Of a stretch of 64,000 nucleotides of DNA, positions 4,768 through 47,484 are shown one piece after another (the first letter of the stretch is position 1; the number at the start of each line of letters is the position of its first letter). This DNA is from an uncultured Gammaproteobacteria bacterium. Its GTDB lineage: Bacteria > Patescibacteriota > Patescibacteriia > GWA2-47-26. Location: contig CAZHIP010000001.1 of assembly GCA_964532925.1 (NCBI GenBank), positions 126,621-190,620 on the forward strand, read 5' to 3'. The position numbers and the translations under genes were made by a program. A model generated the notes under the pieces. That model was not told the origin of the DNA. It worked only from the letters and a program-made list of their open reading frames with translations, and ran no database searches.

Positions 4768-5272
4768 ATGTTCCTAATTTGTCTCGGAGTCGTTTCAGTG
4801 CTCGATGTAAGCGTACAGAGACTATATTTTCTGATTCATCGGTAATGGTCGCAATTTCTTTTGGTCCAAGTCCGTTGATGTATCGGAGCACGATTACTGT
4901 TTTGTGTTTTTCGTCGAGCAGTGAATCGAGTTGTGCAATAATCTTCTTTCCGTCTATGGTTCCAAATATATTTCGTTCGTCATCAACACTTCCTACGTCA
5001 AAGCCAGTTTCTTCTTGCATGGCGTCGAGGGATTCCGCTGTCTTTTTCTTGTGCTCGTTGATAATGCAATTCGTTGCGGTTTTATACAGCAAGGCTCGAG
5101 GGTTATCAATGGTGTTCCCGGCGCTCGCGTATTGCCAAACGCGAGTAAACACCTCCTGGGTCAAGTCTTTGGCGCGTTCATAATCGTAGACGCGAAAGTA
5201 ACAATGGCGAAAAATCGCATCGCTCCACGAGTCATACCAGGAGATAAATTGTTCTTCTATTGGTTTGCCCAT
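4760..5272 (-). CDS. RNA polymerase sigma-70 family, ECF subfamily sigma factor
   Basis: 170 aa. Region-2-like DLTQEVFTRVWQ and region-4 helix-turn-helix ATITDESENIVSVRLHRALKRLRDKL. Confidence 0.85.
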   Translation of the reverse strand: MGKPIEEQFISWYDSWSDAIFRHCYFRVYDYERAKDLTQEVFTRVWQYASAGNTIDNPRALLYKTATNCIINEHKKKTAESLDAMQEETGFDVGSVDDERNIFGTIDGKKIIAQLDSLLDEKHKTVIVLRYINGLGPKEIATITDESENIVSVRLHRALKRLRDKLGTYE

Positions 5273-5459
5273 AGTATATGACAGCGTGGAGTCGTCTTTC
5301 TTACGGAATTGGCGACTTTTCGCTTAAAATAGCATTTTTAAACATACTCTATTTGTCTAGAATGAGCAATATGTAAGAAATAGTTGACTGGGTTGTCATA
5401 CATACCAGAAAAGGTCGAATTTCTTCTTTCCTTAATCATGTTCGTTAGAATATACATAT

Positions 5460-6191
5460 ATGAAACATTCACTAAAAACATATGTTGGTGCAGGTGCAAT
5501 GATCTTGTCTCTTGTTGCCATGATGCCATTTTCAGCTCTTGCAAGTAACGGCCAAGGCAAAAATCGCGATCACTCGGTGTCTATTCGTCCACAAATCGAT
5601 GTGCGTGAAACTGTGCAGGTTAATCCCAATGGTGAGGTTACGTTGCGCGGAGCTGTGAAGAGTGTTGGCACAGCAAGTTTGATAGTGAAAAGCTGGGGTG
5701 GGGATTGGACCATCAACATTGGTACGGGTGTGAAATTAATTTCTCGCGCAAACGCGGTGCTTGTTCTTGCTGATATGAAAGTTGGCGACGTAGTCACCGT
5801 GCATGGATCCATGAAACCGAATGCTGGTTTAACCGTGGATGCACGTCAGATTAAAGATCAGTTTATTCCTGATCGTGCAGTAGTAGTTCGCGGAACCATT
5901 GCATCGATTGATGCGAACACGCTGACAGTAAAGAGCGGTGATGCAACATGGACAGCAACCACTGCTGCAACCACGAAGTTCGTTGCTAAGTTTGGTGGTG
6001 TCACTACGCTTGCTGCAATGAAGGTTGGCGACGAAGTCATGGTCAAAGGTGTCTTGGCCGCTGGTTCAACCACCGCAATACAAGCAACAGAGATAAAAGA
6101 TATCTCACTCGTGTTGACGGTTGAAAAACCAAAAAAGATTAAGATGGACGATGACCGGTTTGATGATCGAGGTGGGCGCAAAAATCAGTAA
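5460..6191 (+). CDS. secreted protein with two tandem repeats of about 100 aa (DUF5666-like)
   Basis: 243 aa. Signal peptide MKHSLKTYVGAGAMILSLVAMMPFSALA. Internal repeat VRG.V.S...KVGD.V.V.G...IKD occurs twice. A TAGAAT -10 element lies 12 nt before the ATG. Confidence 0.5.
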   Translation: MKHSLKTYVGAGAMILSLVAMMPFSALASNGQGKNRDHSVSIRPQIDVRETVQVNPNGEVTLRGAVKSVGTASLIVKSWGGDWTINIGTGVKLISRANAVLVLADMKVGDVVTVHGSMKPNAGLTVDARQIKDQFIPDRAVVVRGTIASIDANTLTVKSGDATWTATTAATTKFVAKFGGVTTLAAMKVGDEVMVKGVLAAGSTTAIQATEIKDISLVLTVEKPKKIKMDDDRFDDRGGRKNQ

Positions 6192-27376: not shown

Positions 27377-30079
27377 ATGAGTTTTCTTACAAAAATTTTT
27401 GGAGACCCCAACGCGCGCTACGTAGGCAAATTGTGGCCGATCGTCCGTCAGGTTAATGCACTGGAGGAGGCGGTGACCAAGCTGTCCGATGACGAGCTCA
27501 AGGCAAAAACAATGAGTTTCAAGGAGCGTCTGGCAGGTGGCGAGGCAACATTAGATGAACTGTTGCCCGAGGCCTTTGCTATGGTTCGCGAGACTGCCAA
27601 GCGCGTACTTGGTCAGCGTCATTATGATGTCCAGCTATTAGGAGGAGTTGTGCTTCATCGCGGTGCTATTGCAGAGATGCGCACCGGTGAAGGTAAAACG
27701 CTTGTGGCGACAGCGCCAGCCTATCTGAATGCGCTTATGGGCAAAGGTGTCCATGTTGTTACGGTGAACGATTACTTGGCACGCCGTGATGCTACTTGGA
27801 TGGGCCGCGTCTATCATGCACTTGGGTTGACGACCGCATGTCTCACGCATGACGGTGCACATATTTTTGACCCAGAATACAAGAGTAAAGAGGCTGATGA
27901 GAAAAACGAGATTGCTGCATACAAAGTAGACCAAGAGTTTTTGCGTCCAGTGTCGCGTCAAGAAGCCTATGCGGCCGATATCACCTATGGCACCAACAAC
28001 GAATTCGGTTTTGATTATCTTCGAGATAACATGGCAGCAACACTGGCGACCATGGTGCAGCGCGAACCACATTACGCGATTATTGATGAAGTAGACTCGA
28101 TTTTGATCGATGAAGCGCGTACTCCACTTATTATTTCTGCTCAAGCTGAGGAGTCAGCTGATTTGTATTATAAGTTCGCAAAGATCGCAGCTACGCTTGT
28201 TGAAAATACAGACTACAATGTTGACGAAAAAATGCGTGCCGCAACATTTACCGAGGCGGGTGTTACCAAAGTTGAACAAGCGCTGGGTATAGCAAACCTC
28301 TATGCAGAAGCGGGATCAACACTGGTTCGCCACGCAGAAGCAGCTCTGAAAGCACGAACATTGTTCCGCCTGGATCGGGAATATGTTGTGCGTGAAGGGG
28401 AAGTTATTATTGTCGATGAATTTACTGGCCGTCTCATGCCGGGTCGTCGTTGGTCAGAAGGTCTGCATCAGGCTGTTGAAGCAAAAGAAGGTTTGAAGAT
28501 CGAGAATGAATCGCAAACGTTGGCGACGGTTACATTGCAAAACTTCTTCCGTATGTTTCCGAAGATGGCAGGCATGACCGGTACCGCCATTACTGAGGCC
28601 GAGGAATTTCATAAGATCTATAAACTCGAAGTGGTCTCGGTTCCAACGCATCGCAACAACGTTCGTAAAGACTTAGTTGATCGTGTCTATAAAAACGAGA
28701 TTGCAAAATTTACTGCCGCGGTAGGTGAAATTAAGGCTCGCCACGAAAAGGGCCAACCAGTGTTGGTTGGTACTATTTCAATCGAGAAAAACGAAGTTAT
28801 TTCCGAACTTCTCACGCGCGCAGGTGTGCCGCACGAAGTATTGAATGCAAAAAACCACGAACGTGAAGCCGCGATTATTGCACAAGCCGGTAAACTGGGT
28901 GGCGTTACCGTGGCCACGAATATGGCTGGTCGTGGTGTCGACATTATTTTGGGCGGTAATCCTGCAGATCCAGCGGAAGCAGAAAAAGTTCGTGCACTCG
29001 GTGGTCTATTTGTTTTGGGTACTGAACGCCATGAATCCCGTCGTATCGACAACCAGTTGCGCGGTCGTTCTGGTCGACAAGGGGATCCGGGCTCTTCACA
29101 ATTCTTTGTTTCGCTCGAAGACGACCTGATGCGTATTTTTGCAGGGGATCGCATCAAGAACCTCATGGAGCGGTTCAATTTGCCCGACGACATGCCGATT
29201 GAAAATGCGCTCGTTTCGCGCTCGATTGAGTCTGCGCAGCGCAAAGTGGAACAGCACAACTTCGATATCCGCAAACATCTTCTTGAATACGATGATGTTT
29301 TAAATAAACATCGCGATACCATCTACCGCAAACGTCGCAATATCTTGCAGCTTGGTACCGAGAAGTCGGTCGCGCTCAAAGAAATGGCGCTTGATATGAT
29401 TGAGCACGAGTTGGAGCGTGTGGTGATGTTTCACACCAACGATGATACCGATTGGAACATTAAAGAAATTTACGAAGTTGCGAACACTATCTTTCCCATT
29501 GATGAATCTGAACGCTCATTTTTGATTGAGCAACCAGACACCAACCTGAAGCTTGATGTTGCAACAACTCGCTCAAAGATTCTTGCGCATCTTATGGAGC
29601 TCGCCGACAAAAAGTACGTCATGCTCGAAGACGCAATGATAAAAACAGCAGGCGACGAACATGCCATGCGTCGCGTTGAGCTTGCAGTAATGCTTCGAGC
29701 CATTGATGCGTTGTGGGTGGAACATTTGGACGCCATTGAACATTTGCGTCAAGGTATTGGTTTGCGTGGATATGGTCAGCGCGATCCGCTGATTGAATAC
29801 AAAAAAGAGGCGTACCGTATGTTCTCGGAACTTACCGCATTGGTTGACCGAGAGATCGTCTATAGTATTTTCAAAGTTGGCGTACATGCCGCAGGGGTCA
29901 CGTCACTCTTAGATCGCAAAGGCATTGTCGAGTCTGCGCCAGCAAAAGAAGGTGATTTGGGTGGTGTTACCACAACACAAACACCTACCGTCGTAGACCC
30001 TAAATATGCCCACGTGGGCCGTAATGACGAGTGTCCGTGTGGTTCTGGTAAGAAGTTTAAGAAGTGTCATGGGGCGTAA
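27377..30079 (+). CDS. secA: preprotein translocase ATPase SecA
   Basis: DEAD-like motor motifs and a C-terminal zinc finger CPCGSGKKFKKCHG. Confidence 0.9.
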   Translation: MSFLTKIFGDPNARYVGKLWPIVRQVNALEEAVTKLSDDELKAKTMSFKERLAGGEATLDELLPEAFAMVRETAKRVLGQRHYDVQLLGGVVLHRGAIAEMRTGEGKTLVATAPAYLNALMGKGVHVVTVNDYLARRDATWMGRVYHALGLTTACLTHDGAHIFDPEYKSKEADEKNEIAAYKVDQEFLRPVSRQEAYAADITYGTNNEFGFDYLRDNMAATLATMVQREPHYAIIDEVDSILIDEARTPLIISAQAEESADLYYKFAKIAATLVENTDYNVDEKMRAATFTEAGVTKVEQALGIANLYAEAGSTLVRHAEAALKARTLFRLDREYVVREGEVIIVDEFTGRLMPGRRWSEGLHQAVEAKEGLKIENESQTLATVTLQNFFRMFPKMAGMTGTAITEAEEFHKIYKLEVVSVPTHRNNVRKDLVDRVYKNEIAKFTAAVGEIKARHEKGQPVLVGTISIEKNEVISELLTRAGVPHEVLNAKNHEREAAIIAQAGKLGGVTVATNMAGRGVDIILGGNPADPAEAEKVRALGGLFVLGTERHESRRIDNQLRGRSGRQGDPGSSQFFVSLEDDLMRIFAGDRIKNLMERFNLPDDMPIENALVSRSIESAQRKVEQHNFDIRKHLLEYDDVLNKHRDTIYRKRRNILQLGTEKSVALKEMALDMIEHELERVVMFHTNDDTDWNIKEIYEVANTIFPIDESERSFLIEQPDTNLKLDVATTRSKILAHLMELADKKYVMLEDAMIKTAGDEHAMRRVELAVMLRAIDALWVEHLDAIEHLRQGIGLRGYGQRDPLIEYKKEAYRMFSELTALVDREIVYSIFKVGVHAAGVTSLLDRKGIVESAPAKEGDLGGVTTTQTPTVVDPKYAHVGRNDECPCGSGKKFKKCHGA

Positions 30080-32042
30080 TATTGTGCCAGATCTCAGCTG
30101 GACTCATTGGGCACCAGAGGATTGTAGTCGAGTTCCAGCTCGAGTCTTAGAAACCCGCAAAGCTGCACTTGGGGTTATTATTGCAGTTCCAAAAGAAGCG
30201 CGGACGTTTGTTAATACCATCGAAGCTATCGAGAAGTCTGGATACGGAACGGCAGATGAAATTAACTATCTCGAAGTGTTGCGTAATGTTAGTGTTTCAA
30301 AAGAAGTTCGTGAGGCAGCCCAGCATGCAGTAGATGAGATTCGCAAAGGCTTGATTGATATCTATTACACTGACGAGTTGTGGCAGGCTATTTCAGAGTA
30401 CGCCGAAAAGGGTGAGCAGCTGGAAGGCCAGGAGGCTAAACTCTTTTTTGAAATGCGCCGTGAGTTTGAGCGCATGGGTTTTGGTTTAGAAAAAGACGCG
30501 AGAGAAGAATTGAAATTGAATATCAAAAAGCGTATTGAGCTTGAGACTACATTCTCGCGCAATATCAATGAATATCGCGATGCTATTGCTGTAACCCTTG
30601 AAGAGCTCGACGGGATGGACGAACGGTTTATCGAGGGGCTTAAGAAAAATGATGAAGGGAGATACTTAGTCGGTCTTGATTACCCAGAGTTAGTTCCTTT
30701 TCTTGGAGGTGCAAAAAACGCTGTTAAGCGGAAAGAATTGCTCGACAAAAATCTTCATAAGGGCGGGGCGGTAAACATGGAGATTTTGGAAAAGGTTTTA
30801 GTTTTGCGCGCCAAAAATGCCGCACGTTTGGGGTACAAAAATCATGCGGACTATGCCACCGCGGTACTCATGTCCAAGAATGGCGACACTGCGCGAGATT
30901 TTTTAACTGGCATTAGTGATAAACTAAAAGATGCCACCAAGCGTGATTACGCTGAGCTGTTGGAAATAAAAAAGCAACAGACAAATGATGTGACAGCCAC
31001 GCTCCAGTATTTTGATACCGCGTACTATACCGAAGAGTTGCAGAAACAGAAGTTTAGTATCGACTCAGAAAAGTTACGTGAGTACTTTCCGCTCGAGCAC
31101 GTCACCGCGCAGATTTTTGCAATATACTCAAAGCTCTTTGGTGCTCGGATTACAGAGGTTCTTGGTGCAAAACTCTGGCACCGGGATGTTCGTATGTATC
31201 AGATTATTGATACGGATGGCTCAATCCGTGCGCATTTTATGCTCGATATATTTCCGCGCGATGGCAAATACACGCATGCTTGTGCCATGGAGATCATCAG
31301 TGCACGAGATGAGCAAGGGGAGCACATCGCCCCTCTGGGTACATTACTCATGAACTTTGCAGCGTCAACGGAAAACACGCCATCCTTGTTGTCGCATGGT
31401 GATGTTGAGACATTTTTCCATGAGTTTGGGCACCTGATGCATTTTTGTTTGGGTCGAACAAAGTATATGTCCCAAAACCCATTTGGCGTGGCGTGGGATT
31501 TTGTAGAAGCGCCATCGCAGATGCTTGAGAACTGGGTATGGAATAAAGAAGCATTATCATTGCTTTCAAAGCACTACCAGACAGGCGAACCTATGCCAGA
31601 GGCCACACTCGATGCGTTAGTAAAAAGTCGCGGTTTTATGATGGCAACGTTTACCATGAAGCAAATGGTGTACGCGCTATTTGATTATTATTTGCACGCC
31701 GAGCCACCACGCTCAAAAGAAGAGATTTGCAAGTTGTTTAATCGGGTTTGGAACGAGCTTTCTGGGGTACTCTTACCAGAGGATAGTATTTTTCCTGCGG
31801 GGTTTGGGCATTTGATGGGGTATGATGCAAAATATTATGGTTATAGTTGGTCGCGCGTTTTTGCGGCTGATATGTTTACACGGTTCGAAAAAGAAGGAGT
31901 ATTACATGAAAAAACTGGTATGGATTACCGCCGGTTCGTTCTTGAGCCAGGTGCCAGCACCGACGAACTCACCTTGGTAAAAAACTTTCTGGGTCGTGAG
32001 CCAAATAATAAAGCATTTTTGAAAGAGATCGGGATTGAGTAA
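30069..32042 (+). CDS. M3-family zinc metallopeptidase (oligopeptidase A/thimet-like)
   Basis: HEFGHLMHF zinc motif. The ORF opens at 30006 inside secA; the first plausible Met is at 30069, overlapping the secA stop by 11 nt. Confidence 0.8.
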   Translation: MGRNIVPDLSWTHWAPEDCSRVPARVLETRKAALGVIIAVPKEARTFVNTIEAIEKSGYGTADEINYLEVLRNVSVSKEVREAAQHAVDEIRKGLIDIYYTDELWQAISEYAEKGEQLEGQEAKLFFEMRREFERMGFGLEKDAREELKLNIKKRIELETTFSRNINEYRDAIAVTLEELDGMDERFIEGLKKNDEGRYLVGLDYPELVPFLGGAKNAVKRKELLDKNLHKGGAVNMEILEKVLVLRAKNAARLGYKNHADYATAVLMSKNGDTARDFLTGISDKLKDATKRDYAELLEIKKQQTNDVTATLQYFDTAYYTEELQKQKFSIDSEKLREYFPLEHVTAQIFAIYSKLFGARITEVLGAKLWHRDVRMYQIIDTDGSIRAHFMLDIFPRDGKYTHACAMEIISARDEQGEHIAPLGTLLMNFAASTENTPSLLSHGDVETFFHEFGHLMHFCLGRTKYMSQNPFGVAWDFVEAPSQMLENWVWNKEALSLLSKHYQTGEPMPEATLDALVKSRGFMMATFTMKQMVYALFDYYLHAEPPRSKEEICKLFNRVWNELSGVLLPEDSIFPAGFGHLMGYDAKYYGYSWSRVFAADMFTRFEKEGVLHEKTGMDYRRFVLEPGASTDELTLVKNFLGREPNNKAFLKEIGIE

Positions 32043-40316: not shown

Positions 40317-42317
40317 TTACGGTGCTGGTGCGCCGGGAACAACTTCATCAGGAGGGATATCCAGCGGGATAAGTGGTTCGTCAGTGTCTTGCTCGATGGG
40401 TGTAGGTTCTAGTGGTTTCTGGATTTCTTGCACGCCAAAATATTTTTGAAGCATTGTTTTTGCAATAGGTGCGGCAGTTGCATGCCCTTCGCCACCTTCT
40501 TCGACCATTACCGTCACAATAAGTTCTGGGTGTTCGTAGGGTGCATATCCAACATACCAAGCTAATGTACGTTTGTCATCGCCCGTCTGGGCCGTACCGG
40601 TTTTGCCAGCACTGGTGATTGGTAGTGTAAGAAGTGATCTGCCAGATCCGGTCAGCACGGTTTCGCGCATGCCTTTTTGTACGGCGGAAAGTGCGCTTGC
40701 GGGAATAATGTTCGAACCACGAACACGATTTTCTGTGGGGCGTTCAAGTACTGTTGGTGTGTAGAGTGTGCCACCGTTTGCGATAGTTGCGGTGATAAGA
40801 GCCATTTGTAGCGGTGTGGTAAGAAGGAAGCCTTGACCGATAGCAATATGGTAGGTATCTCCGATGTACCAAGGCTCTCCAGTGGTCTTTTTCTTCCACT
40901 CTTCAGTAGGAACAAACCCTGCAATTTCACCAGGGAGATCAATGCCTGTTTTCTCCCCAAGCCCGAATATTTTAGCATATTTAGCGATACCGTTCAAACC
41001 AAGGCCGTTAAAGCCATTGTAGCCTCCGCCAATGATATAAAAGAAGGTGTTTACCGATTGAGCAATGGCCTTTTTAACATTGGTGGCTCCATGGCCACCG
41101 CTGCGCCAGTCTGGAAAGAACCAGCCGCCAATACGGATGCCACCACTCGAGAGAAAGGAGGTATTTTCATTGATGAGGCCTGATGCTAAGGCTGCAGAGG
41201 CGATCATGGGTTTAATGGTGGAGCCTGGTGGATAGGCACCAGCGATAACCCGATTGAATAATGGTTTTTTTTCATCAGTAAGGAGTTTTGTAATTTCCGC
41301 ATTGTTTTGTTCTGGGAAGACATTTGCGTTGAAGTCGGGAAGTGAGACTAGGGCACGAATACGCCCATCGGGAGTCATCGCCATTGCTACACCTGCTTTT
41401 GAGCCGCGCATCTTGAGCATGTCAGCGAGCGCTCTGCGAGTCGTTTCTTGTAGTGGTGCATCTAGAGAGAGTGTGAGTGGGGCACCTTCGGTTGGCTGCT
41501 CTGTCGAAAGAATGCCGACAATCTTTCCACGAGCATCAACTTCGGCTTTTTGTGCTCCGTCGGTACCGCGTAATATCTGTTCGTAGGTTGCTTCAACGCC
41601 CGACTTGCCAATCGAATCATTCATTTGATAGTTTTGGTCTTTTCGAGCCTCGTACTCAGCGCCCGAGAGTTTGCCAACATACCCAAGAATATGTGAGTAC
41701 GTATTTTTTTGTGGGTATTCTCGTCGGGGGGAAGTTTCTAGTTGTACTCCTGGTATACCAGTAACCTGTGTGCCAAGCGACAACATCTCATCATGTGTGA
41801 TGTTGTCTTTGATTACCACTACAGGGCTACGGCGTTCGTATGTGGCAATTTGTTCTGCAATGGTCTCTAGGGGTACACCGCTGATCGTGCTGAGTGTTTG
41901 TAGTGTTTGTGTTCGTTCGGTTGGGTTTTTAGGTACATCTGCTGGGGTAACTACGAGAGCAAAGCGGGCAGTATTTTTTGCAATGATGTCGCCGTTTCTG
42001 TCGGTGACAATACCACGGAGAGCGGGGATACGAATAAGCCGAATGCGGTTTCTGTCTGCGCGAGTGGCAAATGCAGCGCCCTTGTAGATTTGTAAATAGG
42101 CTGTGCGAAATACTAACCCAATGAAGGCTAGAGAAATAATTCCAAATAGTAGGCTGAATTGACGAAGACTAATAATTCGTCGCAAAAATTCTCGCTGTCC
42201 TTCGGGAGAGTCGGTCTCATGGGGAGCAATAGATTCAATCCAGCGTTCGCCGAGTGGTACTGAGCGATCTTTGAGCTGGCTGGGTGGGAGAAAAAAAGGG
42301 TCGGACGTTGAATACAT
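40317..42317 (-). CDS. penicillin-binding protein 2 / FtsI-family peptidoglycan D,D-transpeptidase
   Basis: N-terminal TM helix and the transpeptidase motifs STIKP, SSG and KTGTA. Confidence 0.85.
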   Translation of the reverse strand: MYSTSDPFFLPPSQLKDRSVPLGERWIESIAPHETDSPEGQREFLRRIISLRQFSLLFGIISLAFIGLVFRTAYLQIYKGAAFATRADRNRIRLIRIPALRGIVTDRNGDIIAKNTARFALVVTPADVPKNPTERTQTLQTLSTISGVPLETIAEQIATYERRSPVVVIKDNITHDEMLSLGTQVTGIPGVQLETSPRREYPQKNTYSHILGYVGKLSGAEYEARKDQNYQMNDSIGKSGVEATYEQILRGTDGAQKAEVDARGKIVGILSTEQPTEGAPLTLSLDAPLQETTRRALADMLKMRGSKAGVAMAMTPDGRIRALVSLPDFNANVFPEQNNAEITKLLTDEKKPLFNRVIAGAYPPGSTIKPMIASAALASGLINENTSFLSSGGIRIGGWFFPDWRSGGHGATNVKKAIAQSVNTFFYIIGGGYNGFNGLGLNGIAKYAKIFGLGEKTGIDLPGEIAGFVPTEEWKKKTTGEPWYIGDTYHIAIGQGFLLTTPLQMALITATIANGGTLYTPTVLERPTENRVRGSNIIPASALSAVQKGMRETVLTGSGRSLLTLPITSAGKTGTAQTGDDKRTLAWYVGYAPYEHPELIVTVMVEEGGEGHATAAPIAKTMLQKYFGVQEIQKPLEPTPIEQDTDEPLIPLDIPPDEVVPGAPAP

Positions 42318-42357
42318 AATTGTATCCTATCGCGACCCTAGAGGTTGAGCAAGATGA

Positions 42358-45300
42358 TTATGCGAGCGCCTTGATTGCAAGGCCGAGAATAGCGCGAACA
42401 AGGAGGAGATTTACGCCAACGAGGAGGAGAACTTGCGCTGCAAAGTGCCAGCGAGCAAAGCGAGTATAAGAGTGGTCAATGATGCCAGTTTCGTTCGGCG
42501 AGGCCATGCGTGAGAATCCTTGGGCGCTGTGGCGGGTAAGTACAGAAGGGAGCGCCAGGAAGCTCTTTAAGTAACCTTTGAGACCCTTGCGGCGGCCTGC
42601 AGCGCGTACCATGACACCACTTGATACCACGAACCCTGCAAATGACGCAGCAGCGATTGGTGGGATTAAGTCATTCGTAGTTTGAACTGGTGCAGATTCA
42701 AGTACATCAGAAAGAGGGCCACTTGGTGAAGTAAGTGCACCTGGGGTAGTTGGGATATTTTCAAAACCTGCCGCGTCAGGAGTCACATCTTGTGTTGTAG
42801 TGGTGGCAACAGTGGTACCAGCAAGAGCCATCCAGTTGAAGGGACCAAAGCTAACGCCATCCATCGAGCGGACAGTAAACGCTGTTGCGGTTTGTGATGC
42901 AATGAATAGGGCAGCAGGAGTATTTGTTGAAGTGATAAACGCCTGGTAATTGCCGCCGACTGCATCTGAAAAATTTGTTGGCAGAGTAATGATGACTTCT
43001 TTGAGGGCATCAGTGAGTTCTGCACGACCAGAGATGAAGGAGGGGGTGCCGAGGGTAACCATTGGTGATGGAGTTGTTGCAGGTGTGGGTGTGGTGGAGT
43101 TGGTGGTTGTCGTTGCCACTGGGGTTGTTGCGGCAGTAGCGGCAGCGCTCTGGTTTAGGTTCACGAGCATAAGCACCTTACCTGTGCCTTGTCCGTTGAA
43201 GCTTTCAAGGGCCATACCAACAGTTGTTCCAGCTTGAGTTGCTTTCATGGCAGTACCTGGGGTTGATGATGAGGTGAGATAGTCGCCAGGAGCAATAGCA
43301 CCATTTTCTGCTGTGACTTTTACGGGAACACGGCCAGCGAGCGCCAGAGGGAGTGGGTGAGCTGACTTCTTCTTTAAATCTTCACCAAGAATTTGGTATG
43401 GAGCTGATGAAATTACACCCGTTATGTTTGATTGATATGGCGTAGAGCTCTTTACCATAATAGGCACGGTTTCATCTTCACCGGCAATAATTTTTTGGAA
43501 GTTGTTGGGATCGCGCTCGATACCCTGGTAGCTTACTGTTTTTGTTCCGAGCGCAACAAGATCGCCTTCAGAAACAGTACCGTCAGTTTCGTACCACTCG
43601 GCCAAGTCAGAAGGAGCACCGTTACAGTCTTCGAGTTGTGCGGATCCTTCGGTGCCTGACCAACACAGGCCTGCAGTGGAAGAAGCAACTGTTGCGTTTA
43701 CTGTGGTGCGACCAGTCGAGGAAACGCCGAATAAGGTTGCATCAGCAGAACTCGTTATGGTGAGAAGGTTTGCGGATTGAGATCCAGCACCCTTAATAAA
43801 GAGCCCAACGCGCGACGCTGATTGGTTGTAGACCGCAAGCTGCCCGCCCGGTGGGTTTGCGTATTGGCCAACTGCGACACCGGTCGACATGACTTGGAGT
43901 GCTAGCGTGTCATCAAATGTCGATGATTGTGTATAAAAAGCATGATAGCCAATGCCTGAATAGTTAATGTTTCCTGCATAATCAAAACGCCACGCAGATT
44001 TGAGCACACCATTAAAGGATGTCGAGAGCATTGTTTGGCCGCTACCGCTTGTATTTGCGAGTTCAAGAGCTGAGTTGGCAATAGAAACGGTTGCGTTGGT
44101 GTTGCCGTACGAGAGAGTAGTGAGCCCGGAGTTAATGGTGGAGGTGCCCACACCAAGTTTCGTGGCGACATTGAGCGTGCCATCAGTCTTGATGGTGTTC
44201 GCTGCAGAGCGATAGAGGTTGGAGGATGCCTCTCCAAAATTTAGACCCGCAGCAGCCGTAGTGCCTGATCCGCCACCAATGGTGAGTGCAACGGATGGGG
44301 TGGTATTGTTGATGCCGACGTTTCCGACGTCGAAGATACCTGCATATTTTGTTCCACCACCTGTTGCGGTTGCATACATGCCAACACTGGTGCTTGCGGC
44401 ATCAGCTTTAAAGTAGCCGCCGTAACCCGTAGTCATGGTGCCGCCGTTTAAGTTATCTGCAACGCCGTATACGCCGTAGGCTGTTGTGACGTTGGCGACT
44501 TCACTACCGGTTTGTGCTGCGCTATACGTACCAAACAATGAGGGTAGTGTGAGAGTACCATCAGCACTGGTAGCAAGTGTCTTTGTGCCAAAGGCACCCT
44601 GGGTTACGGTGTTTGCGTTGGAGTTTACAATAAGGGTTGAGTTTGTACCTATGAGAGCAAAAGCGTTACCGTTGCCATTTACGTCACTGGTGAAGAAATT
44701 ATTGATTCCGTAGAGAGTGCCACCTTGCACCAAATTTCCATTGTACGTTTGGCTAATTTGTAAGGGTACTGGTGGGTAAGTGATACCTGTAACCGAAGCC
44801 GTCTTGCCTACCTCAAGAAGAGCGGAGGGGTTGGCGGTGCCGATACCGACGCCGACACCATTGATAGCCATCTTCGTTTGGGGTGTGCGATCCGTGGTGC
44901 CGGTCGTGGTTGCATCAGGGGTTTTGAAAAGTATATTTGATGTCCCTGACCCAGTGGAGATACCAGAAGTCAGCACAAGATCTCCGCCAGATTGGTCTGT
45001 GCCCCCAGATTGCCCGCCACCAGCATTGATAGTAAGGCCTTTTCCTGGCCATGCGCCAGATACGCGGCCCATACCAATAGTTTGGTCTTCATCTGCAAAT
45101 AAATCGATATTGCGAGCTGGGTCACCTCCAGTTTGGGATAGCCCCATAAAAATACCTTGGGAGGCAGTACCAAGAAGAGTAAGACTGCGCATCGAAGTAT
45201 CAGATGTGCCAGAATTGCCTGGTTGCGGGACTTGAAGGTAGATTTTTGATGTTCCAGAGCCTGTAGCGATACCAGAGGTGAGAGTGAGGTTGCCACCATT

Positions 45301-47424
45301 TGTATTCGATTCAGAAGTTTTGGCTCGACCAGCCTTTACGGTGAGACCCCCTCCTGGGCCACTACCGGTCTTTTCGCCAATACCAAATGCGATATCTAAA
45401 TCGCCCTGATAAATTGTATTACCTGTTCCATCGATGGTTAGTCTGGTTGAAGGATCTTTGTCACCTGTGCCAGAATTACCACCGCCTGCAGTCATGAATT
45501 CGATATTTGATCCGCCGTTACCTGTTGCGATACCGGTTGAGAGGGTTAGGTTTCCCCCTGTTTGGTTTGCAATGCCCGCCTTAGCACCACCACCTCGAAT
45601 CATTAGAGCTTGTCCATTATCAGAGGGGGAAGCTTGTCGCTCAAGGCCGATAATTTTTTCACCATTACCGCTAAAAGAAAGATCATAACTCGGAGCAGTG
45701 GTACCGATACCAATTCTTCCATTTTCAAAAATTGCCGCGTAGTTATTTTGTGCACCAGAGGCAGAGGCGTAGAGGCCGACATTCGTTAAGTCGTTGCCAC
45801 CGGTGGAGCGAGATGATGTATTGTTGAAATAGCCAGCATAGTTGGTTAGGGAGCCGCCGGTTGTGTTAAAAGTCGCAAAAGAAGCAGCATCGACAACTCG
45901 CTTGTTGTTTCCGTTAAGGCCGGTTCCACGATTGTCAAAGTAGGCGGCGTTACCTAAGCCGGTGTTCATAACATACAGAGGGGAGCCTTCGAATGCGCTT
46001 TGGCCGGATAGCTCAAGAATGGCGGAGCCAGCTCCATTGGCTTCCATTTTAATACCCCAACCAGATCCTGTGCCATCAAAATTCCAACCCCATGTTTGGC
46101 TATAGTTGCCATTTCCAATGTTGTTGGTGCTTGTTGCGGCAGTTAGAGCAGAAAGCGTGGAGCCACCTCCTATAGGAGAACCGTTTACAGTGAGAGTACC
46201 CGTAACGTCCACCGTATCATTGGTGACCGTAAGAACCGATCCATTGTTAAAACCGACCTTAAATGTGCTGGCGGTGTTGTTGGTAAAGCCAGATCCGATA
46301 GCAATCGCGTTGTTTGCAGATGCGGTGAGGGAGCTCCCAATTGCAATCGTATTGTTGGCTGATGCTGTTACAGAGCTACCCAAAGCAATCGCACTGCCGC
46401 CACTTGCTGTAGACTCGCCCCCCAAGGCAATAGACGAATCACCACTTGCTGTGTTTAGGAATCCCGCGGCAAACGACTGGCCACCGCTCGCTGTAGACTT
46501 CATGCCCATAACAGTACTTGCAAGACCAGAAGCATTTGTTTCTAGACCGAATGCAGAGGCACTTGCTCCGCCTGCACGGGAGTTGATCCCTGCTGCAAAC
46601 GAGCCTGGCCCTACATTTGCGGCATCCCAATAGGCACTACCATTCGTAAATCCTTCAAGAACCGTCATGTCGCCAATGGATCCAGCGCGGAAGGCGCCTT
46701 TTGATGGATTCCAGAGAATTTTACTGCCGAGCGATGAAACACCTGCGGTTGCAATGTCTGTGCCAGCAAAGCTTGCTGTGCCGGTGCCTTCAATTCCATA
46801 ATCTTCGCCAAGTAGTAGACCGCCAGAAATAGAATTGAAAGGTACAGGGTTTCCAGCGGTTAGGTCTTGGACACCAACAGATAAGTTGTTTGATACATAA
46901 AAGTCATTCTGGGAACGTTCTGCGAATTTTGCGCGGTTTGCTAAAGGTGCAGTGCCAATGTCTTTCCGCGGAGTCATTTCACTTTCTGTGCATGTGGTTG
47001 TTATGGGTGTATCACCTACACCACAGACAGTGACGCCCAGAGTAAATGCATCTGAGTCATATTCATATAGTGCATCCGGAAGAGCTGTTTGTCCCGAATC
47101 GCCTAGATAGACCGAAAAAAAACCGTTTTGGACCGAAATGGAGACAGATTTTCTGCTTTGTTCTGTATTGCCGCAACCAGTAGTATCACCTACAAGTACG
47201 CCTGCACCCCACAAACAACCGCCGTCACGGTAGAGGGCAAACTTCATTTGATAGGTGCCATTAGCAACCGCGACACCATTTGGATCAGTCAATTTTCCAA
47301 TATATTGGATTTTTGGTAGAGGGTTTTCTGCTGCTGCAAAATGGGGATTTGTGAGTGAAAATAAAAACGCAACCGCTGCAATTGCGAGAAAAGTGGTGCC
47401 AATATTGCGACGATGTTTTTGCAT
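42358..47424 (-). CDS. giant (1688 aa) repeat-rich surface protein with YadA-head-like (Hep/Hag-type) Gly/Ser/Ala repeats, Thr-rich linker and C-terminal TM anchor; candidate adhesin
   Basis: Signal peptide. Degenerate repeats of the type SIALGGESTASGGSAIALGSSVTASANNTIAIGSSLTASANNAIAIGSG, also visible as 39-42-nt tandem periodicity near 46290-46440. Thr-rich TTPVATTTTNSTTPTPATTP linker. Terminal hydrophobic helix AAQVLLLVGVNLLLVRAILGLAIKALA. Confidence 0.7.
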   Translation of the reverse strand: MQKHRRNIGTTFLAIAAVAFLFSLTNPHFAAAENPLPKIQYIGKLTDPNGVAVANGTYQMKFALYRDGGCLWGAGVLVGDTTGCGNTEQSRKSVSISVQNGFFSVYLGDSGQTALPDALYEYDSDAFTLGVTVCGVGDTPITTTCTESEMTPRKDIGTAPLANRAKFAERSQNDFYVSNNLSVGVQDLTAGNPVPFNSISGGLLLGEDYGIEGTGTASFAGTDIATAGVSSLGSKILWNPSKGAFRAGSIGDMTVLEGFTNGSAYWDAANVGPGSFAAGINSRAGGASASAFGLETNASGLASTVMGMKSTASGGQSFAAGFLNTASGDSSIALGGESTASGGSAIALGSSVTASANNTIAIGSSLTASANNAIAIGSGFTNNTASTFKVGFNNGSVLTVTNDTVDVTGTLTVNGSPIGGGSTLSALTAATSTNNIGNGNYSQTWGWNFDGTGSGWGIKMEANGAGSAILELSGQSAFEGSPLYVMNTGLGNAAYFDNRGTGLNGNNKRVVDAASFATFNTTGGSLTNYAGYFNNTSSRSTGGNDLTNVGLYASASGAQNNYAAIFENGRIGIGTTAPSYDLSFSGNGEKIIGLERQASPSDNGQALMIRGGGAKAGIANQTGGNLTLSTGIATGNGGSNIEFMTAGGGNSGTGDKDPSTRLTIDGTGNTIYQGDLDIAFGIGEKTGSGPGGGLTVKAGRAKTSESNTNGGNLTLTSGIATGSGTSKIYLQVPQPGNSGTSDTSMRSLTLLGTASQGIFMGLSQTGGDPARNIDLFADEDQTIGMGRVSGAWPGKGLTINAGGGQSGGTDQSGGDLVLTSGISTGSGTSNILFKTPDATTTGTTDRTPQTKMAINGVGVGIGTANPSALLEVGKTASVTGITYPPVPLQISQTYNGNLVQGGTLYGINNFFTSDVNGNGNAFALIGTNSTLIVNSNANTVTQGAFGTKTLATSADGTLTLPSLFGTYSAAQTGSEVANVTTAYGVYGVADNLNGGTMTTGYGGYFKADAASTSVGMYATATGGGTKYAGIFDVGNVGINNTTPSVALTIGGGSGTTAAAGLNFGEASSNLYRSAANTIKTDGTLNVATKLGVGTSTINSGLTTLSYGNTNATVSIANSALELANTSGSGQTMLSTSFNGVLKSAWRFDYAGNINYSGIGYHAFYTQSSTFDDTLALQVMSTGVAVGQYANPPGGQLAVYNQSASRVGLFIKGAGSQSANLLTITSSADATLFGVSSTGRTTVNATVASSTAGLCWSGTEGSAQLEDCNGAPSDLAEWYETDGTVSEGDLVALGTKTVSYQGIERDPNNFQKIIAGEDETVPIMVKSSTPYQSNITGVISSAPYQILGEDLKKKSAHPLPLALAGRVPVKVTAENGAIAPGDYLTSSSTPGTAMKATQAGTTVGMALESFNGQGTGKVLMLVNLNQSAAATAATTPVATTTTNSTTPTPATTPSPMVTLGTPSFISGRAELTDALKEVIITLPTNFSDAVGGNYQAFITSTNTPAALFIASQTATAFTVRSMDGVSFGPFNWMALAGTTVATTTTQDVTPDAAGFENIPTTPGALTSPSGPLSDVLESAPVQTTNDLIPPIAAASFAGFVVSSGVMVRAAGRRKGLKGYLKSFLALPSVLTRHSAQGFSRMASPNETGIIDHSYTRFARWHFAAQVLLLVGVNLLLVRAILGLAIKALA

Positions 47425-47484
47425 ACGTTGAATGCCCTAATTGTATCACGCTGAAAAAATGTCTACTACGAGCTTATGCACAGG

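What the first reader, a model, noticed from the sequence alone, without database searches (positions are those of the whole stretch)
42358..47484. 1688-aa repeat-rich surface protein: candidate host-attachment adhesin with internally recombining repeats
This is the largest gene in the window (5 kb). It has a signal peptide, hundreds of residues of degenerate G/S/A/T/N repeats of the YadA-head (Hep/Hag) type that recur at the nucleotide level with 39-42-nt periodicity (46290-46440), a Thr/Pro-rich linker and a single C-terminal TM anchor. A C-terminal segment (SDLAEWYETDGTVSEGDLVALG...) looks like motifs seen in phage tail-fibre-type C-terminal domains; I recall this from memory only and cannot verify it. 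Such giant fibrous proteins are prime candidates for attachment to a host cell or surface. Their repeat arrays are hotspots for slipped-strand variation.
Basis: partly seen in the sequence, partly recalled or inferred. Interest (0 to 1): 0.6.

Follow-up and report, generated by a model that had tools for sequence, protein, structure and literature searches.

The report
Giant phage-like cell surface fibre
This 1688-residue exported protein of an uncultured bacterium is built like a phage tail fibre and ends in a phage phi29-type self-trimerising chaperone domain tied to the cell membrane, so it is a credible cell-attachment fibre, but its repeats are too degenerate to act as slippage hotspots.

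Summary
The gene is real: window 42358..47424, minus strand, 1688 aa, the largest gene in the window. The finding's end coordinate is 60 nt too far.

Confirmed features:
- a Sec-type signal peptide;
- about 8 YadA-head-type 14-residue units (aa 279-390);
- a Thr/Pro-rich linker;
- a phage-type C-terminal module.

Corrections:
- Only about 160 aa are YadA-like.
- There are two C-terminal hydrophobic segments, not one.

The protein belongs to a large cellular fibre family with a signal peptide, a conserved N-domain, a beta-rich fibre and the G2-like module. The module is shared with phages; the N-domain is not. Here the module is followed by a rare, strongly conserved membrane hairpin, found in only 4 proteins among 1.84 billion representatives. 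All four lie between the GAPDH and PBP2 genes.

The slipped-strand or recombining-repeat idea is not supported: the longest exact repeat is 13 nt, which is chance level, and repeat units are at most 74% identical. An adhesin role is plausible but inferred. I rate it a new variant of a known kind, of moderate interest.

The parts
42358..47424 (-). Complete CDS, 1688 aa plus stop codon
   Evidence: ORF list. The identical protein is in the public collection as P0001, on a 266.5-kb NCBI contig and also in Logan. Independent Logan contigs are 100% identical to the window.
47440..47448 (-). Possible extended -10 promoter element (TGATACAAT), 15 nt upstream of the ATG
   Evidence: Sequence read. A similar 'GATACAATTA...ATTCAACGT' element lies at the PBP2 start. 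The consensus scan did not call it, so this is tentative.
47329..47424 (-). Signal peptide, aa 1-32 (AAA|E cleavage site)
   Evidence: hydrophobic segment at aa 7-30, basic n-region, AxA site. Sequence inspection only.
46900..47328 (-). Conserved N-terminal domain, aa 33-175, with four invariant Cys (C70, C84, C134, C145); beta-sandwich
46225..46719 (-). YadA-head-type (left-handed beta-roll) block, aa 236-400; about 8 units of 14 aa at aa 279-390
   Evidence: Pfam PF05658 scores 36.9 bits on the segment. PDB hits are BpaC, YadA, Hep_Hag and UspA1. TRF period 42.
45658..46224 (-). Beta-rich module, aa 401-589, ending in loop motif IGIGTTAPSYDL; a 40-aa motif here recurs at aa 1012-1051
   Evidence: No family hits.
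44815..45657 (-). Three degenerate ~90-100-aa stalk modules, aa 590-870 (GGNLTLSTG / GGNLTLTSG / GGDLVLTSG), ending in VGIGTANPSALL
   Evidence: Direct-repeat family D1 with spacing 309 and 261 nt. Protein self-matches are 38-49% identical. Module number differs among orthologs.
43669..44814 (-). Most divergent region, aa 871-1252; largely an insertion relative to the orthologs; candidate exposed tip
   Evidence: A1 alignment. It is 28-31% identical to the orthologs, with dN about 0.88. No family hits.
43588..43668 (-). Cys-pair loop (C1253, C1267) and the putative autocleavage motif S1272|D1273-L-A-E1276-W-Y-E
   Evidence: The profile aligns DlAE to residue 1 of the crystallised phi29 gp12 C-fragment, DFAEYFE. 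The gp12 sequence reads ...TWS|DFAEYFE. D, A and E are at least 90% conserved in A3. hhalign gives E 2.4e-5.
43150..43608 (-). G2-type (phi29 gp12 D4-like) beta-tulip autochaperone and trimerisation module, aa 1273-1425
43060..43149 (-). Thr/Pro/Ala-rich linker, aa 1426-1455
   Evidence: sequence and composition.
42805..43059 (-). Small conserved domain, aa 1456-1540 (ends ...FGPFNWMALAG)
   Evidence: It is 69-85% identical in the close orthologs. By eye, similar small domains follow the C-module in P0004 and P0013 and P0062 and P0064. No family hit.
42607..42669 (-). Hydrophobic segment 1, aa 1586-1606 (predicted TM, out-to-in)
   Evidence: Kyte-Doolittle 1.67. It is followed by RAAGRRKGLKGYLK.
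42448..42606 (-). Nearly invariant basic loop, aa 1607-1659, predicted cytoplasmic
   Evidence: Invariant columns. dN 0.06 and dN/dS about 0.03 against L002. Ten K/R against two D/E.
42361..42447 (-). Hydrophobic segment 2, aa 1660-1688 (predicted TM, reaching the C-terminus)
   Evidence: Kyte-Doolittle 2.46. Conserved in P0002, P0003 and P0186.

Best explanation
The gene encodes a Sec-exported, probably homotrimeric, beta-rich cell-surface fibre. It belongs to the cellular family that resembles phage tail fibres.

Shown:
- A signal peptide is followed by a conserved Cys-containing N-terminal beta-sandwich that marks the cellular family. Next come a YadA-type beta-roll block and further degenerate beta-modules.
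- At aa 1273-1425 there is a module with the fold of the phi29 gp12 D4 (Peptidase_G2) autochaperone. Its D-x-A-E motif aligns with the first residues of the crystallised gp12 C-terminal fragment.
- Unlike in phages, the module is not terminal. A Thr/Pro linker, a small domain and a two-helix membrane hairpin follow it, and that hairpin is under housekeeping-level purifying selection.

Inferred mechanism:
- After export, the hairpin keeps three chains together in the membrane plane.
- The beta-tulip module trimerises and templates folding of the fibre from its C-terminal end. This is how gp12 D4 works (10.1101/216911).
- Self-cleavage at S1272|D1273 may then follow. I put this at roughly 40%. 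It would free the fibre from its membrane tether, as in MyRF. The fibre would then be held through the N-domain, and the divergent region aa 871-1272 would be exposed as the binding tip, as proposed for Bdellovibrio MAT fibres.
- If there is no cleavage or release, the hairpin is the permanent anchor and the N-domain is distal.
- In either case the likely role is contact with another cell or a surface.
For: - ORF, signal peptide and TM layout.
- YadA-type block.
- Motif alignment with gp12: (hhalign 75.7%, E 2.4e-5). gp12 D4 is PF11962 at 2e-92, and family member P0157 passes the Peptidase_G2 threshold.
- D, A and E of the motif are at least 90% conserved across 52 family members.
- In phage contigs the module is at the extreme C-terminus in 98 of 98 ORFs and no TM follows it. 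PA5oct-like jumbo-phage homologs are annotated as virion structural or baseplate proteins.
- Cellular family: 81 of 95 complete C-module proteins have the N-domain just after the signal peptide; 0 viral ORFs do.
- 18 of 142 cellular members have a TM after the module. These include ~500-aa Caldilineaceae proteins with the same layout in miniature.
- N-domain also pairs with S74-type chaperones, for example P0008, P0017 and P0041.
- The ectodomain diverges 5-15 times faster in dN than the tail and the housekeeping genes.
- The region next to the module is the most divergent and rich in indels.
- The gene is chromosomal and vertically inherited. It lies at the same locus in four genomes, down to 51-66% housekeeping identity.
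- Literature: gp12 D4 is a tandem beta-tulip autochaperone, with homology to 'some bacterial adhesion proteins' noted earlier (10.1101/216911). MAT fibres (PMC10769870). MyRF membrane-tethered chaperone cleavage (PMC3742443, PMC8326128).
Against: - Trimerisation, surface exposure, cleavage and adhesion were not tested. No multimer model could be run.
- The window module does not reach Pfam Peptidase_G2 significance. Sequence-level support is weak: E 0.17 against the PDB sequence, and 3 of 17 family members hit PF11962 weakly.
- The three orthologs have Y in place of the motif Asp (GYIAE, GYVSE), so cleavage is probably not a conserved property of this orthologous group.
- The invariant cytoplasmic loop is hard to reconcile with a disposable tether.
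- Some relatives carry two modules in series, so the module can be an internal structural node.
- gp12 D4 release is ATP-dependent. This rests on my memory of Xiang et al. 2009, which I could not retrieve. ATP is not available outside the cell.
- The N-domain fold gave no functional clue.
- The organism was not identified, so there is no direct evidence for a 'host'.
Confidence: 0.55

Rival explanations
1. The fibre is permanently membrane-anchored. The G2-like module serves only as a non-cleaving trimerisation base next to the membrane, the TM hairpin is the lifelong anchor, the Thr/Pro linker spans the wall, and the N-terminal domain is the distal, functional end.
For: - The two-TM tail is under strong purifying selection, including the cytoplasmic loop.
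- The orthologs lack the motif Asp.
- Relatives with two serial modules show the module can be internal.
- 18 of 142 cellular members have a TM after the module.
- C-terminally anchored fibres with a distal N-terminal head are the rule in trimeric autotransporter adhesins (established knowledge).
Against: - D-x-A-E is at least 90% conserved across the family, including the TM-anchored Caldilineaceae members. That is unexpected for a purely structural role.
- The window protein has the canonical S|DLAE.
- The N-domain is the conserved, family-wide end, while the part next to the module is the variable one. This is the reverse of what a distal binding head would show.
Confidence: 0.3
2. It is a structural envelope or S-layer-like spacer protein and not an adhesin. 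It would form a fibrous coat that sets envelope spacing or protects the cell, as with C-terminally anchored, Thr-rich archaeal S-layer glycoproteins.
For: - C-terminal membrane anchor preceded by a Thr/Pro-rich stretch.
- Core, vertically inherited gene at a housekeeping locus next to PBP2 in four genomes.
- Family members also occur in Chloroflexota (Caldilineaceae) and Acetothermia MAGs, so the family is not restricted to Patescibacteria.
Against: - All recognisable parts (YadA head, tail-spike autochaperone, MAT-like layout) come from adhesin or receptor-binding proteins (PMC10769870).
- There is no SLH or S-layer domain hit.
- The ectodomain evolves very fast and by module gain and loss. 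That is more typical of interaction surfaces, although S-layer proteins also evolve fast.
Confidence: 0.12
3. It is a phage, prophage or tailocin tail-fibre gene and not a cellular gene.
For: The C-module is abundant in viral contigs and in jumbo-phage structural proteins, and its fold matches the phi29 tail spike.
Against: - The gene is flanked by S2, EF-Ts, GAPDH, PBP2, GreA and tRNA synthetases. The order is the same in four genomes of decreasing relatedness.
- No phage genes were found among the ten large window proteins scanned.
- It has a signal peptide, and the N-domain is absent from all viral ORFs examined.
- It has a TM tail that no viral ORF has.
- GC content is close to that of the surroundings.
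Confidence: 0.02
4. One reading: a phase- or length-variable adhesin whose repeat arrays recombine or slip at high frequency.
For: - 14-aa / 42-nt periodicity.
- In-register 14-aa unit differences and different stalk-module numbers between orthologs.
- Short-read assemblies break inside the gene.
Against: - The longest exact direct repeat is 13 nt, equal to the codon-shuffle expectation and to other genes.
- The best unit pair is 74% identical over 42 nt and the mean is 41%.
- Protein repeats are 38-51% identical.
- The assembly break lies at the C-module boundary, not in the repeat arrays.
- Three independent contigs are 100% identical to the window across the repeats.
Confidence: 0.03

Closest known systems
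Bacteriophage phi29 gp12 pre-neck appendage (tail spike), domain D4: Peptidase_G2 / IMC autochaperone (PF11962; PDB 3gqh, 3suc)
- Same S|D-[FL]-A-E-[YW]-[FY]-E motif, at the point where the crystallised gp12 C-fragment begins.
- It sits at the C-terminal end of a beta-rich fibre.
- D4 is a tandem beta-tulip that drives trimerisation (10.1101/216911).
   Different: - The window module does not pass the Pfam G2 threshold. It belongs to a divergent, Pfam-unannotated branch.
- It is not terminal: about 260 aa follow, including two TM segments.
- The protein is exported by a cell and is not assembled in the cytoplasm onto a virion, so ATP-dependent release (from memory) cannot apply.
- There is no pectin-lyase-like enzymatic beta-helix hit.
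Bdellovibrio bacteriovorus MAT (mosaic adhesive trimer) fibres (Caulton et al. 2024, PMC10769870)
   Same: - Cellular, signal-peptide-bearing proteins of about 1000 aa or more.
- A conserved ~130-aa beta-rich N-terminal domain directly after the signal peptide.
- A long beta-rich fibre with a recurring VG..xxPxxxL-type loop (three copies here).
- A variable or mosaic C-terminal part and a phage-type C-terminal chaperone in many members.
- Function in recognising other cells.
   Different: - MAT chaperones are S74 (SDxxxK); here the module is G2-type.
- The paper as read describes MAT fibres ending in an S74 domain or a tip domain and does not mention a membrane hairpin after them.
- The loop motif here is one residue longer.
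- Homology of the N-domains could not be tested because no sequences were available.
- The cell envelope of the window organism is not known.
'Tail fiber domain-containing proteins' of Bacteroidota, Kapabacteria and WOR-1 (YadA_head + Peptidase_S74)
   Same: They share the YadA-type block (36-48% identity over it). Several share the N-domain, for example P0008, P0017 and P0041.
   Different: They end in S74 (PF13884), sometimes with a T9SS sorting domain. They have no G2-like module and no TM hairpin.
Trimeric autotransporter adhesins (YadA, BpaC, UspA1)
   Same: The YadA_head / Hep_Hag 14-residue beta-roll repeats, and the fibrous, presumably trimeric adhesin logic.
   Different: There is no YadA_anchor beta-barrel, no coiled-coil stalk and no ESPR signal peptide. 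The anchor is an alpha-helical hairpin in the cytoplasmic membrane.
MyRF (myelin regulatory factor): membrane-tethered ICA domain (PMC3742443, PMC8326128)
   Same: A phage tail-spike chaperone domain lies between a functional N-terminal part and a TM anchor. In MyRF it trimerises and self-cleaves to release the N-terminal trimer from the membrane.
   Different: MyRF is eukaryotic, its ICA is S74-type, and cleavage occurs on the cytoplasmic side to release a transcription factor. Here the module is G2-type and extracytoplasmic, and cleavage is unproven.

Membership tests
Trimeric autotransporter adhesin (YadA family) | YadA_head / Hep_Hag left-handed beta-roll repeats | tested here: met
   PF05658 scores 36.9 bits on aa 236-425 (cut-off 25). 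PDB hits: BpaC 2.6e-10, YadA 9.8e-6, Hep_Hag 1.9e-5.
Trimeric autotransporter adhesin (YadA family) | C-terminal YadA_anchor 12-strand beta-barrel translocator (PF03895) | tested here: not met
   No hit on the whole protein or on the C-terminal 259 aa at E up to 10. The C-terminus is two hydrophobic helices.
Trimeric autotransporter adhesin (YadA family) | Coiled-coil stalk and neck connectors (PF05662 and others) | tested here: not met
   No Pfam hit. True TAAs among the hits carry PF05662 and PF03895.
Peptidase_G2 / phi29 gp12-type intramolecular chaperone | Tandem beta-tulip fold of gp12 D4 | tested here: met
Peptidase_G2 / phi29 gp12-type intramolecular chaperone | Sequence membership (Pfam PF11962 gathering score) | tested here: not met
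   The window module has no PF11962 hit. Three of 17 relatives hit weakly (best E 0.006). P0157 reaches 25.6 bits against a cut-off of 25. hhalign of A3 against gp12 D4 gives 75.7% probability and E 2.4e-5 over 57 columns. So it is a remote relative and not a Pfam member.
Peptidase_G2 / phi29 gp12-type intramolecular chaperone | Cleavage-site motif S|D-x-A-E at the start of the module | tested here: met
   The window has S1272|DLAEWYE. gp12 has S|DFAEYFE, and chain 3gqh starts at that D. D, A and E are at least 90% conserved in A3. The orthologs have Y in place of D.
Peptidase_G2 / phi29 gp12-type intramolecular chaperone | Module at the extreme C-terminus, removed from the mature protein | tested here: not met
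   263 residues follow the module. In 98 of 98 viral ORFs a median of 3 residues follow.
Peptidase_G2 / phi29 gp12-type intramolecular chaperone | Autoproteolysis after trimerisation | not testable with these tools
   This needs expression of the fragment with and without D1273N or E1276Q.
Peptidase_S74 (endosialidase-type intramolecular chaperone) | PF13884 match and S-D-x-x-x-K catalytic motif | tested here: not met
   No PF13884 hit. The sequence after S1272 is D-L-A-E-W, so there is no Lys at +5.
MAT (mosaic adhesive trimer) superfamily | Signal peptide followed directly by a conserved ~130-aa beta-rich N-terminal domain | tested here: inconclusive
   Such a domain is present (aa 33-175) and is shared with S74-bearing fibres. 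Homology to the Bdellovibrio N-domain could not be tested because the paper and its supplements hold no sequences.
MAT (mosaic adhesive trimer) superfamily | Intertwined trimeric beta-helix/prism fibre with V-G-G/N-pi-x-x-P-x-x-x-L capping loops | tested here: inconclusive
   Three [VI]G[I][GN]xxxPxxxL loops occur at aa 571, 859 and 1036, one residue longer than the MAT consensus. No multimer model could be run.
MAT (mosaic adhesive trimer) superfamily | One conserved end and one diversified (mosaic) end | tested here: met
   The N-domain is 41-61% identical and the tail 51-91% identical to the orthologs, against 28-31% for aa 861-1261. The C-module ranks the orthologs last of 142.
MAT (mosaic adhesive trimer) superfamily | Surface exposure and binding of another cell's surface | not testable with these tools
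   This needs localisation and binding assays.
MyRF-like membrane-tethered chaperone | Phage-type chaperone domain placed between the functional N-terminal part and a TM anchor | tested here: met
   Module at aa 1273-1425 and TM segments at 1586-1606 and 1660-1688. The mechanism in MyRF is described in PMC3742443.
MyRF-like membrane-tethered chaperone | S74-type ICA domain; cleavage releases the N-terminal trimer | tested here: not met
   The module is G2-type and not S74. Cleavage is untested.
Sortase / exosortase-type C-terminal sorting signals (LPXTG, PEP-CTERM and others) | Motif + TM + basic tail at the very C-terminus, recognised by NCBIfam models | tested here: not met
   NCBIfam returns 0 families. 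TM1 plus RAAGRRKG resembles such a signal, but 75 more residues follow.

The most novel reading that the evidence does not exclude
A bacterial, extracytoplasmic counterpart of the MyRF mechanism. A phi29-gp12-type (G2) autochaperone is tethered to the cytoplasmic membrane by a conserved two-helix hairpin. It assembles the trimeric fibre on the outer face of the membrane and then self-cleaves at S1272|D1273. This switches the fibre from membrane-tethered to wall- or partner-held (via the N-domain) and unmasks a variable binding tip. The invariant cytoplasmic loop would couple this event to an unknown intracellular partner, perhaps the neighbouring cell-wall machinery. If true, this would define how a widespread family of Patescibacteria and Chloroflexota fibres, not annotated by Pfam, is assembled and deployed for cell-cell attachment.
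Probability: 0.25. Interest if true: 0.7.

Novelty: new variant of a known kind. Interest (0 to 1): 0.5.

Why it matters
How ultrasmall, probably episymbiotic bacteria recognise and hold on to partner cells is largely unknown beyond type IV pili (for example PMC12206443 and PMC9894109). This gene gives a concrete and testable candidate.

- It is a vertically inherited, fast-evolving fibre built from adhesin and phage receptor-binding parts.
- It exposes a large family that Pfam does not annotate: at least 434 cellular proteins and at least 335 viral loci carry a divergent phi29-gp12-type autochaperone.
- In cells the module is paired with a cell-specific N-terminal domain and, in a subset, with a membrane anchor placed after the chaperone.
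- That arrangement is known from eukaryotic MyRF (S74-type). I did not find it described for bacterial fibres in the papers I searched.
- It makes a simple biochemical question directly testable: does the module self-cleave, and does D1273 or E1276 matter?

For annotation, it shows that YadA_head hits outside diderm autotransporters should not be read as TAAs. It also shows that visible repeat periodicity does not imply phase variation.

Tried and rejected
- TAA membership: no anchor or stalk domains.
- NCBIfam on the whole protein: nothing.
- PHROGs on the whole protein and on 7 segments: only unannotated or weak families. The YadA-like block hits phrog_20057 and phrog_14251 at about 3e-6, and the C-module hits a 'head scaffolding' family at 5e-4.
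- BLAST self-comparison of the gene and the protein: no off-diagonal hits. A chunked search was needed to see the degenerate repeats.
- The afdb50 fold library was unavailable.
- Organism identity: cluster look-ups gave no organism names. The window genome is not among the GTDB representatives scanned. Only relatives are labelled Patescibacteria, Saccharibacteria, Kaiserbacteria, Paceibacterota or Chloroflexia. Several best hits are labelled 'uncultured Gammaproteobacteria'. I did not check those labels.
- Xiang et al. 2009 (the gp12 mechanism paper) could not be retrieved, so the catalytic-residue and ATP-release statements rest on memory.
- The MAT paper supplements contain no sequences.
- Prophage origin: rejected on context.
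- Operon with PBP2: not supported as a general feature. The L103 relative has a hairpin plus T-run (terminator-like by eye) between the two genes.


Full report
**1. The observation**

The ORF runs from 47424 (ATG) to 42358 on the minus strand and encodes 1688 aa. The finding's end coordinate, 47484, adds the 60-nt spacer up to the stop codon of the upstream GAPDH gene. It is the largest gene in a window that is otherwise core chromosome: DnaE, SecA, PheT, RecG, GyrB, ThrRS and SHMT. The identical protein is in the public collection as P0001, on a 266.5-kb NCBI contig and also in Logan. Three independent Logan contigs are 100% identical to the window over 4-13 kb. The gene is therefore not an assembly artefact.

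**2. Anatomy**

Positions are unless stated otherwise.
- aa 1-32: a Sec-type signal peptide with a basic n-region, a hydrophobic core and an AAA|E site.
- aa 33-175: a conserved domain with four invariant Cys.
- aa 236-400: a YadA-head-type block.
- aa 401-1252: G/T/S/N/A-rich beta-type sequence with few charged residues and no Cys.
- aa 1253-1279: a Cys pair followed by S1272|DLAEWYE.
- aa 1273-1425: the C-module.
- aa 1426-1455: a Thr/Pro/Ala-rich linker.
- aa 1456-1540: a small conserved domain.
- aa 1586-1606 and 1660-1688: two hydrophobic segments. A 53-aa loop with 10 Arg/Lys and 2 Asp/Glu lies between them, so by the positive-inside rule it is cytoplasmic.

**3. YadA-type repeats and the repeat claims**

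Pfam YadA_head is below threshold on the whole protein (19.3 bits). It is clearly above threshold on the isolated segment (36.9 bits against 25). PDB sequence matches are to BpaC (2.6e-10), YadA (1e-5), a Hep_Hag protein and UspA1, all within aa 240-430. The block consists of about 8 in-register 14-residue units, aa 279-390, window 46255-46590. TRF reports period 42, 2.2 copies and 75% matches at 46300-46393.

The units are degenerate. Pairwise nt identity averages 41% and peaks at 74%. The longest exact direct repeat in the whole gene is 13 nt. Codon-shuffled versions give a mean of 12.1, and 30 of 100 reach 13 or more. Other genes in the window give 10-14. A second repeat system, three ~90-100-aa stalk modules at aa 590-870, is 38-49% identical at the protein level.

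Nothing in the present sequence could sustain slipped-strand mispairing or frequent homologous recombination. Over evolutionary time unit numbers did change. The orthologs differ by in-register 14-aa units and have 3, 1-2, 4 and 1 stalk modules.

**4. The C-terminal module**

The segment beginning SDLAEWYE has no significant Pfam, NCBIfam or PDB sequence match on its own. It does recur in unrelated large proteins. A search with it, followed by a profile search, found at least 434 proteins. Nearly all lack any Pfam annotation. They come from Caldilineaceae and other Chloroflexota, Saccharimonadales, Dojkabacteria and Acetothermia.

The crystallised fragment starts at residue 1 with DFAEYFE, and the family profile aligns its near-invariant D-x-A-E exactly there. 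In the gp12 gene the context is ...TWS|DFAEYFESLDG. In the window it is ...APS|DLAEWYET-DG. hhalign of the family alignment against gp12 D4 gives 75.7% probability and E 2.4e-5. One family member passes the Pfam G2 threshold.

I conclude that the module is a divergent branch of the gp12 / G2 autochaperone fold. The S74 alternative is excluded because there is no PF13884 hit and no SDxxxK motif.

**5. Phage versus cell**

The module is common in viruses. There are at least 335 confirmed loci in IMG/VR. PA5oct-like jumbo phages carry it in genes annotated 'virion structural protein' or 'baseplate wedge subunit and tail pin'. In 98 of 98 viral ORFs it lies at the extreme C-terminus, with a median of 3 residues after it and no TM.

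In cellular proteins, 81 of 95 apparently complete members carry the window's N-domain immediately after a signal peptide. No viral ORF carries it. The same N-domain also heads S74-bearing 'tail fiber domain-containing' proteins of Kapabacteria, WOR-1 and others. So there is a cellular fibre superfamily with a signal peptide, the N-domain, a fibre and a phage-type chaperone of either kind.

Eighteen of 142 cellular members have a hydrophobic segment after the module. They include ~500-aa Caldilineaceae proteins that repeat the window protein's layout in miniature: signal peptide, N-domain, Cys pair, CNxDVAETF module, a coiled-coil-like segment (by eye), and a TM with a basic tail. The N-domain itself models as a beta-sandwich of moderate confidence. 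It has only generic Ig-like structural neighbours and no viral ones.

**6. The orthologous group and its evolution**

The tail (aa 1456-1688) is extremely rare. Among 1.84 billion representative proteins only P0001, P0002, P0003 and P0186 carry it. All four (1688, 1317, 1462 and 1159 aa) lie between GAPDH and PBP2 in the order S2, EF-Ts, GAPDH, fibre, PBP2, GreA, aaRS. This holds even in a genome whose S2 and PBP2 are only 63% and 51% identical to the window's. The gene is thus a stable, vertically inherited chromosomal gene and not a prophage gene.

Against the closest relative (L002; GAPDH 96%, PBP2 88%, GreA 87% aa identity), identities by region are:
- TM hairpin: 91% aa but only 77% nt identical (dN 0.06, dN/dS about 0.03), so it is under housekeeping-level purifying selection.
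- N-domain: 48%.
- YadA block: 60%.
- aa 401-860: 40%.
- aa 861-1261: 31%.
- C-module: 44%.

Across these ectodomain regions dN is 0.31-0.88. dS is saturated, so positive selection cannot be assessed.

The window's C-module ranks its own orthologs 136th, 140th and 142nd of 142. The orthologs have GYIAE or GYVSE where the window has the canonical SDLAE. Together with the ~400-aa insertion at aa 861-1261, this points to replacement or very rapid divergence of the membrane-proximal third of the ectodomain. No close donor was found; the best outside match is 44% identical.

In one metagenome the assembly graph breaks exactly on the 30-mer encoding PSDLAEWYET, and in a second it breaks 52 nt away. 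That suggests another allele or paralog shares this junction. This is weak evidence and remains unresolved.

**7. Mechanism**

Shown: the domain order, the fold of the module, the motif match, the family structure and the selection pattern.

Inferred:
- Export is through Sec.
- The hairpin holds three chains in the membrane.
- The beta-tulip module trimerises and templates C-to-N folding of the fibre, as in gp12.
- The fibre projects from the cell and binds something.

Whether the chain is cut at S1272|D1273 is open.

For cleavage:
- The canonical motif is present here.
- It is at least 90% conserved across the family, including TM-anchored members.
- The most variable region lies directly N-terminal to the module, where phage fibres and Bdellovibrio MAT fibres carry their binding tips (PMC10769870).
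- MyRF shows that a membrane-tethered tail-spike chaperone can release an N-terminal trimer (PMC3742443, PMC8326128).

Against cleavage:
- The motif Asp is lost in all three orthologs.
- The cytoplasmic loop is invariant, which a disposable tether would not need.
- Relatives with two modules in series exist.
- From my memory of Xiang et al. 2009, which I could not retrieve, release of gp12 D4 needs ATP.

I put the general model at about 0.55 and the cleavage step at about 0.4. The permanently anchored variant, with the N-domain distal, is the main rival at 0.3.

**8. Comparison with known systems and novelty**

- It is not a trimeric autotransporter. The head repeats are met, but the anchor barrel and stalk are not.
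- It is not an S74 protein.
- It works like a phi29-gp12-type tail spike in its assembly module.
- It resembles Bdellovibrio MAT fibres in overall logic. MAT membership is undecided because the N-domains could not be compared.
- The new element is the architecture: a G2-type autochaperone that is internal and tethered by a conserved membrane hairpin, inside a large cellular family that Pfam does not annotate.

I rate this a new variant of a known kind. Homology of gp12 D4 to 'some bacterial adhesion proteins' was already noted by Rossmann's group, as cited in 10.1101/216911.

**9. Caveats**

- The organism was not identified. Labelled relatives are mostly Patescibacteria, so 'host attachment' presupposes a lifestyle that I could not verify.
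- No multimer modelling was possible.
- Signal peptide and TM calls are by inspection and hydropathy only.

Noticed in passing
window 47425-47450 and 42310-42335 (minus strand): The fibre gene and the downstream PBP2 gene are both preceded by the same words, 'GATACAATTA' and 'ATTCAACGT'. This looks like an extended -10 promoter with a very short or absent leader. For PBP2 the annotated ATG lies between the two words, so its start may be mis-called or its mRNA leaderless.
   Followed up: no
window 43585-43614 and 43666; loci L099, L100, L101: Logan short-read contigs that are 100% identical to the window end or start inside the gene at the C-module boundary. In one sample two contigs overlap by exactly 30 nt (k-1) on the 30-mer encoding PSDLAEWYET. 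This implies a graph branch, so another allele or paralog in the community shares that junction.
   Followed up: partly
window 42448-42606 (aa 1607-1659): The predicted cytoplasmic loop between the two C-terminal TM segments is almost invariant among orthologs (dN/dS about 0.03) and matches no known family. This suggests an unknown intracellular partner.
   Followed up: partly
loci L003, L004, L007, L009, L010, L013; proteins P0013, P0020, P0021, P0029, P0031: Distant relatives carry the N-domain plus two G2-like C-modules in series. Both P0013 copies keep D-x-A-E. So in cellular proteins the module can be internal and duplicated.
   Followed up: partly
loci L003-L005, L007, L008, L010, L013: The best N-domain relatives among the GTDB representatives are titled 'uncultured Gammaproteobacteria bacterium' (TPA co-assembly MAGs), while the other hits are Patescibacteria. 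I did not check these labels.
   Followed up: no
window 156-2039 (+): A 627-aa protein with TraG P-loop / AAA_10 / HerA-like domains (a VirB4- or TraG-type ATPase) sits at the edge of the window among housekeeping genes. It may be part of a type IV secretion-like or conjugative system.
   Followed up: no
window 30006-30079: The SecA ORF (27377-30079) and the M3 peptidase ORF (30006-32042) overlap by 74 nt as listed. The peptidase probably starts at a later codon.
   Followed up: no
locus L002, 4624-6312: In the closest relative's 7.3-kb contig, PBP2 is called only as a 229-aa transpeptidase fragment. Yet tblastn finds the N-terminal part at 4624-5517. This is probably a frameshift or an assembly error in that record.
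   Followed up: no
locus L103, 6700-6757: In the most distant ortholog's genome, a hairpin followed by a T-run (CCCTGAAT...ATTCAGGG + T-run), terminator-like by eye, separates the fibre gene from PBP2. A TGTGATATAAT element precedes the fibre gene. So the two genes are not necessarily co-transcribed across the lineage.
   Followed up: no
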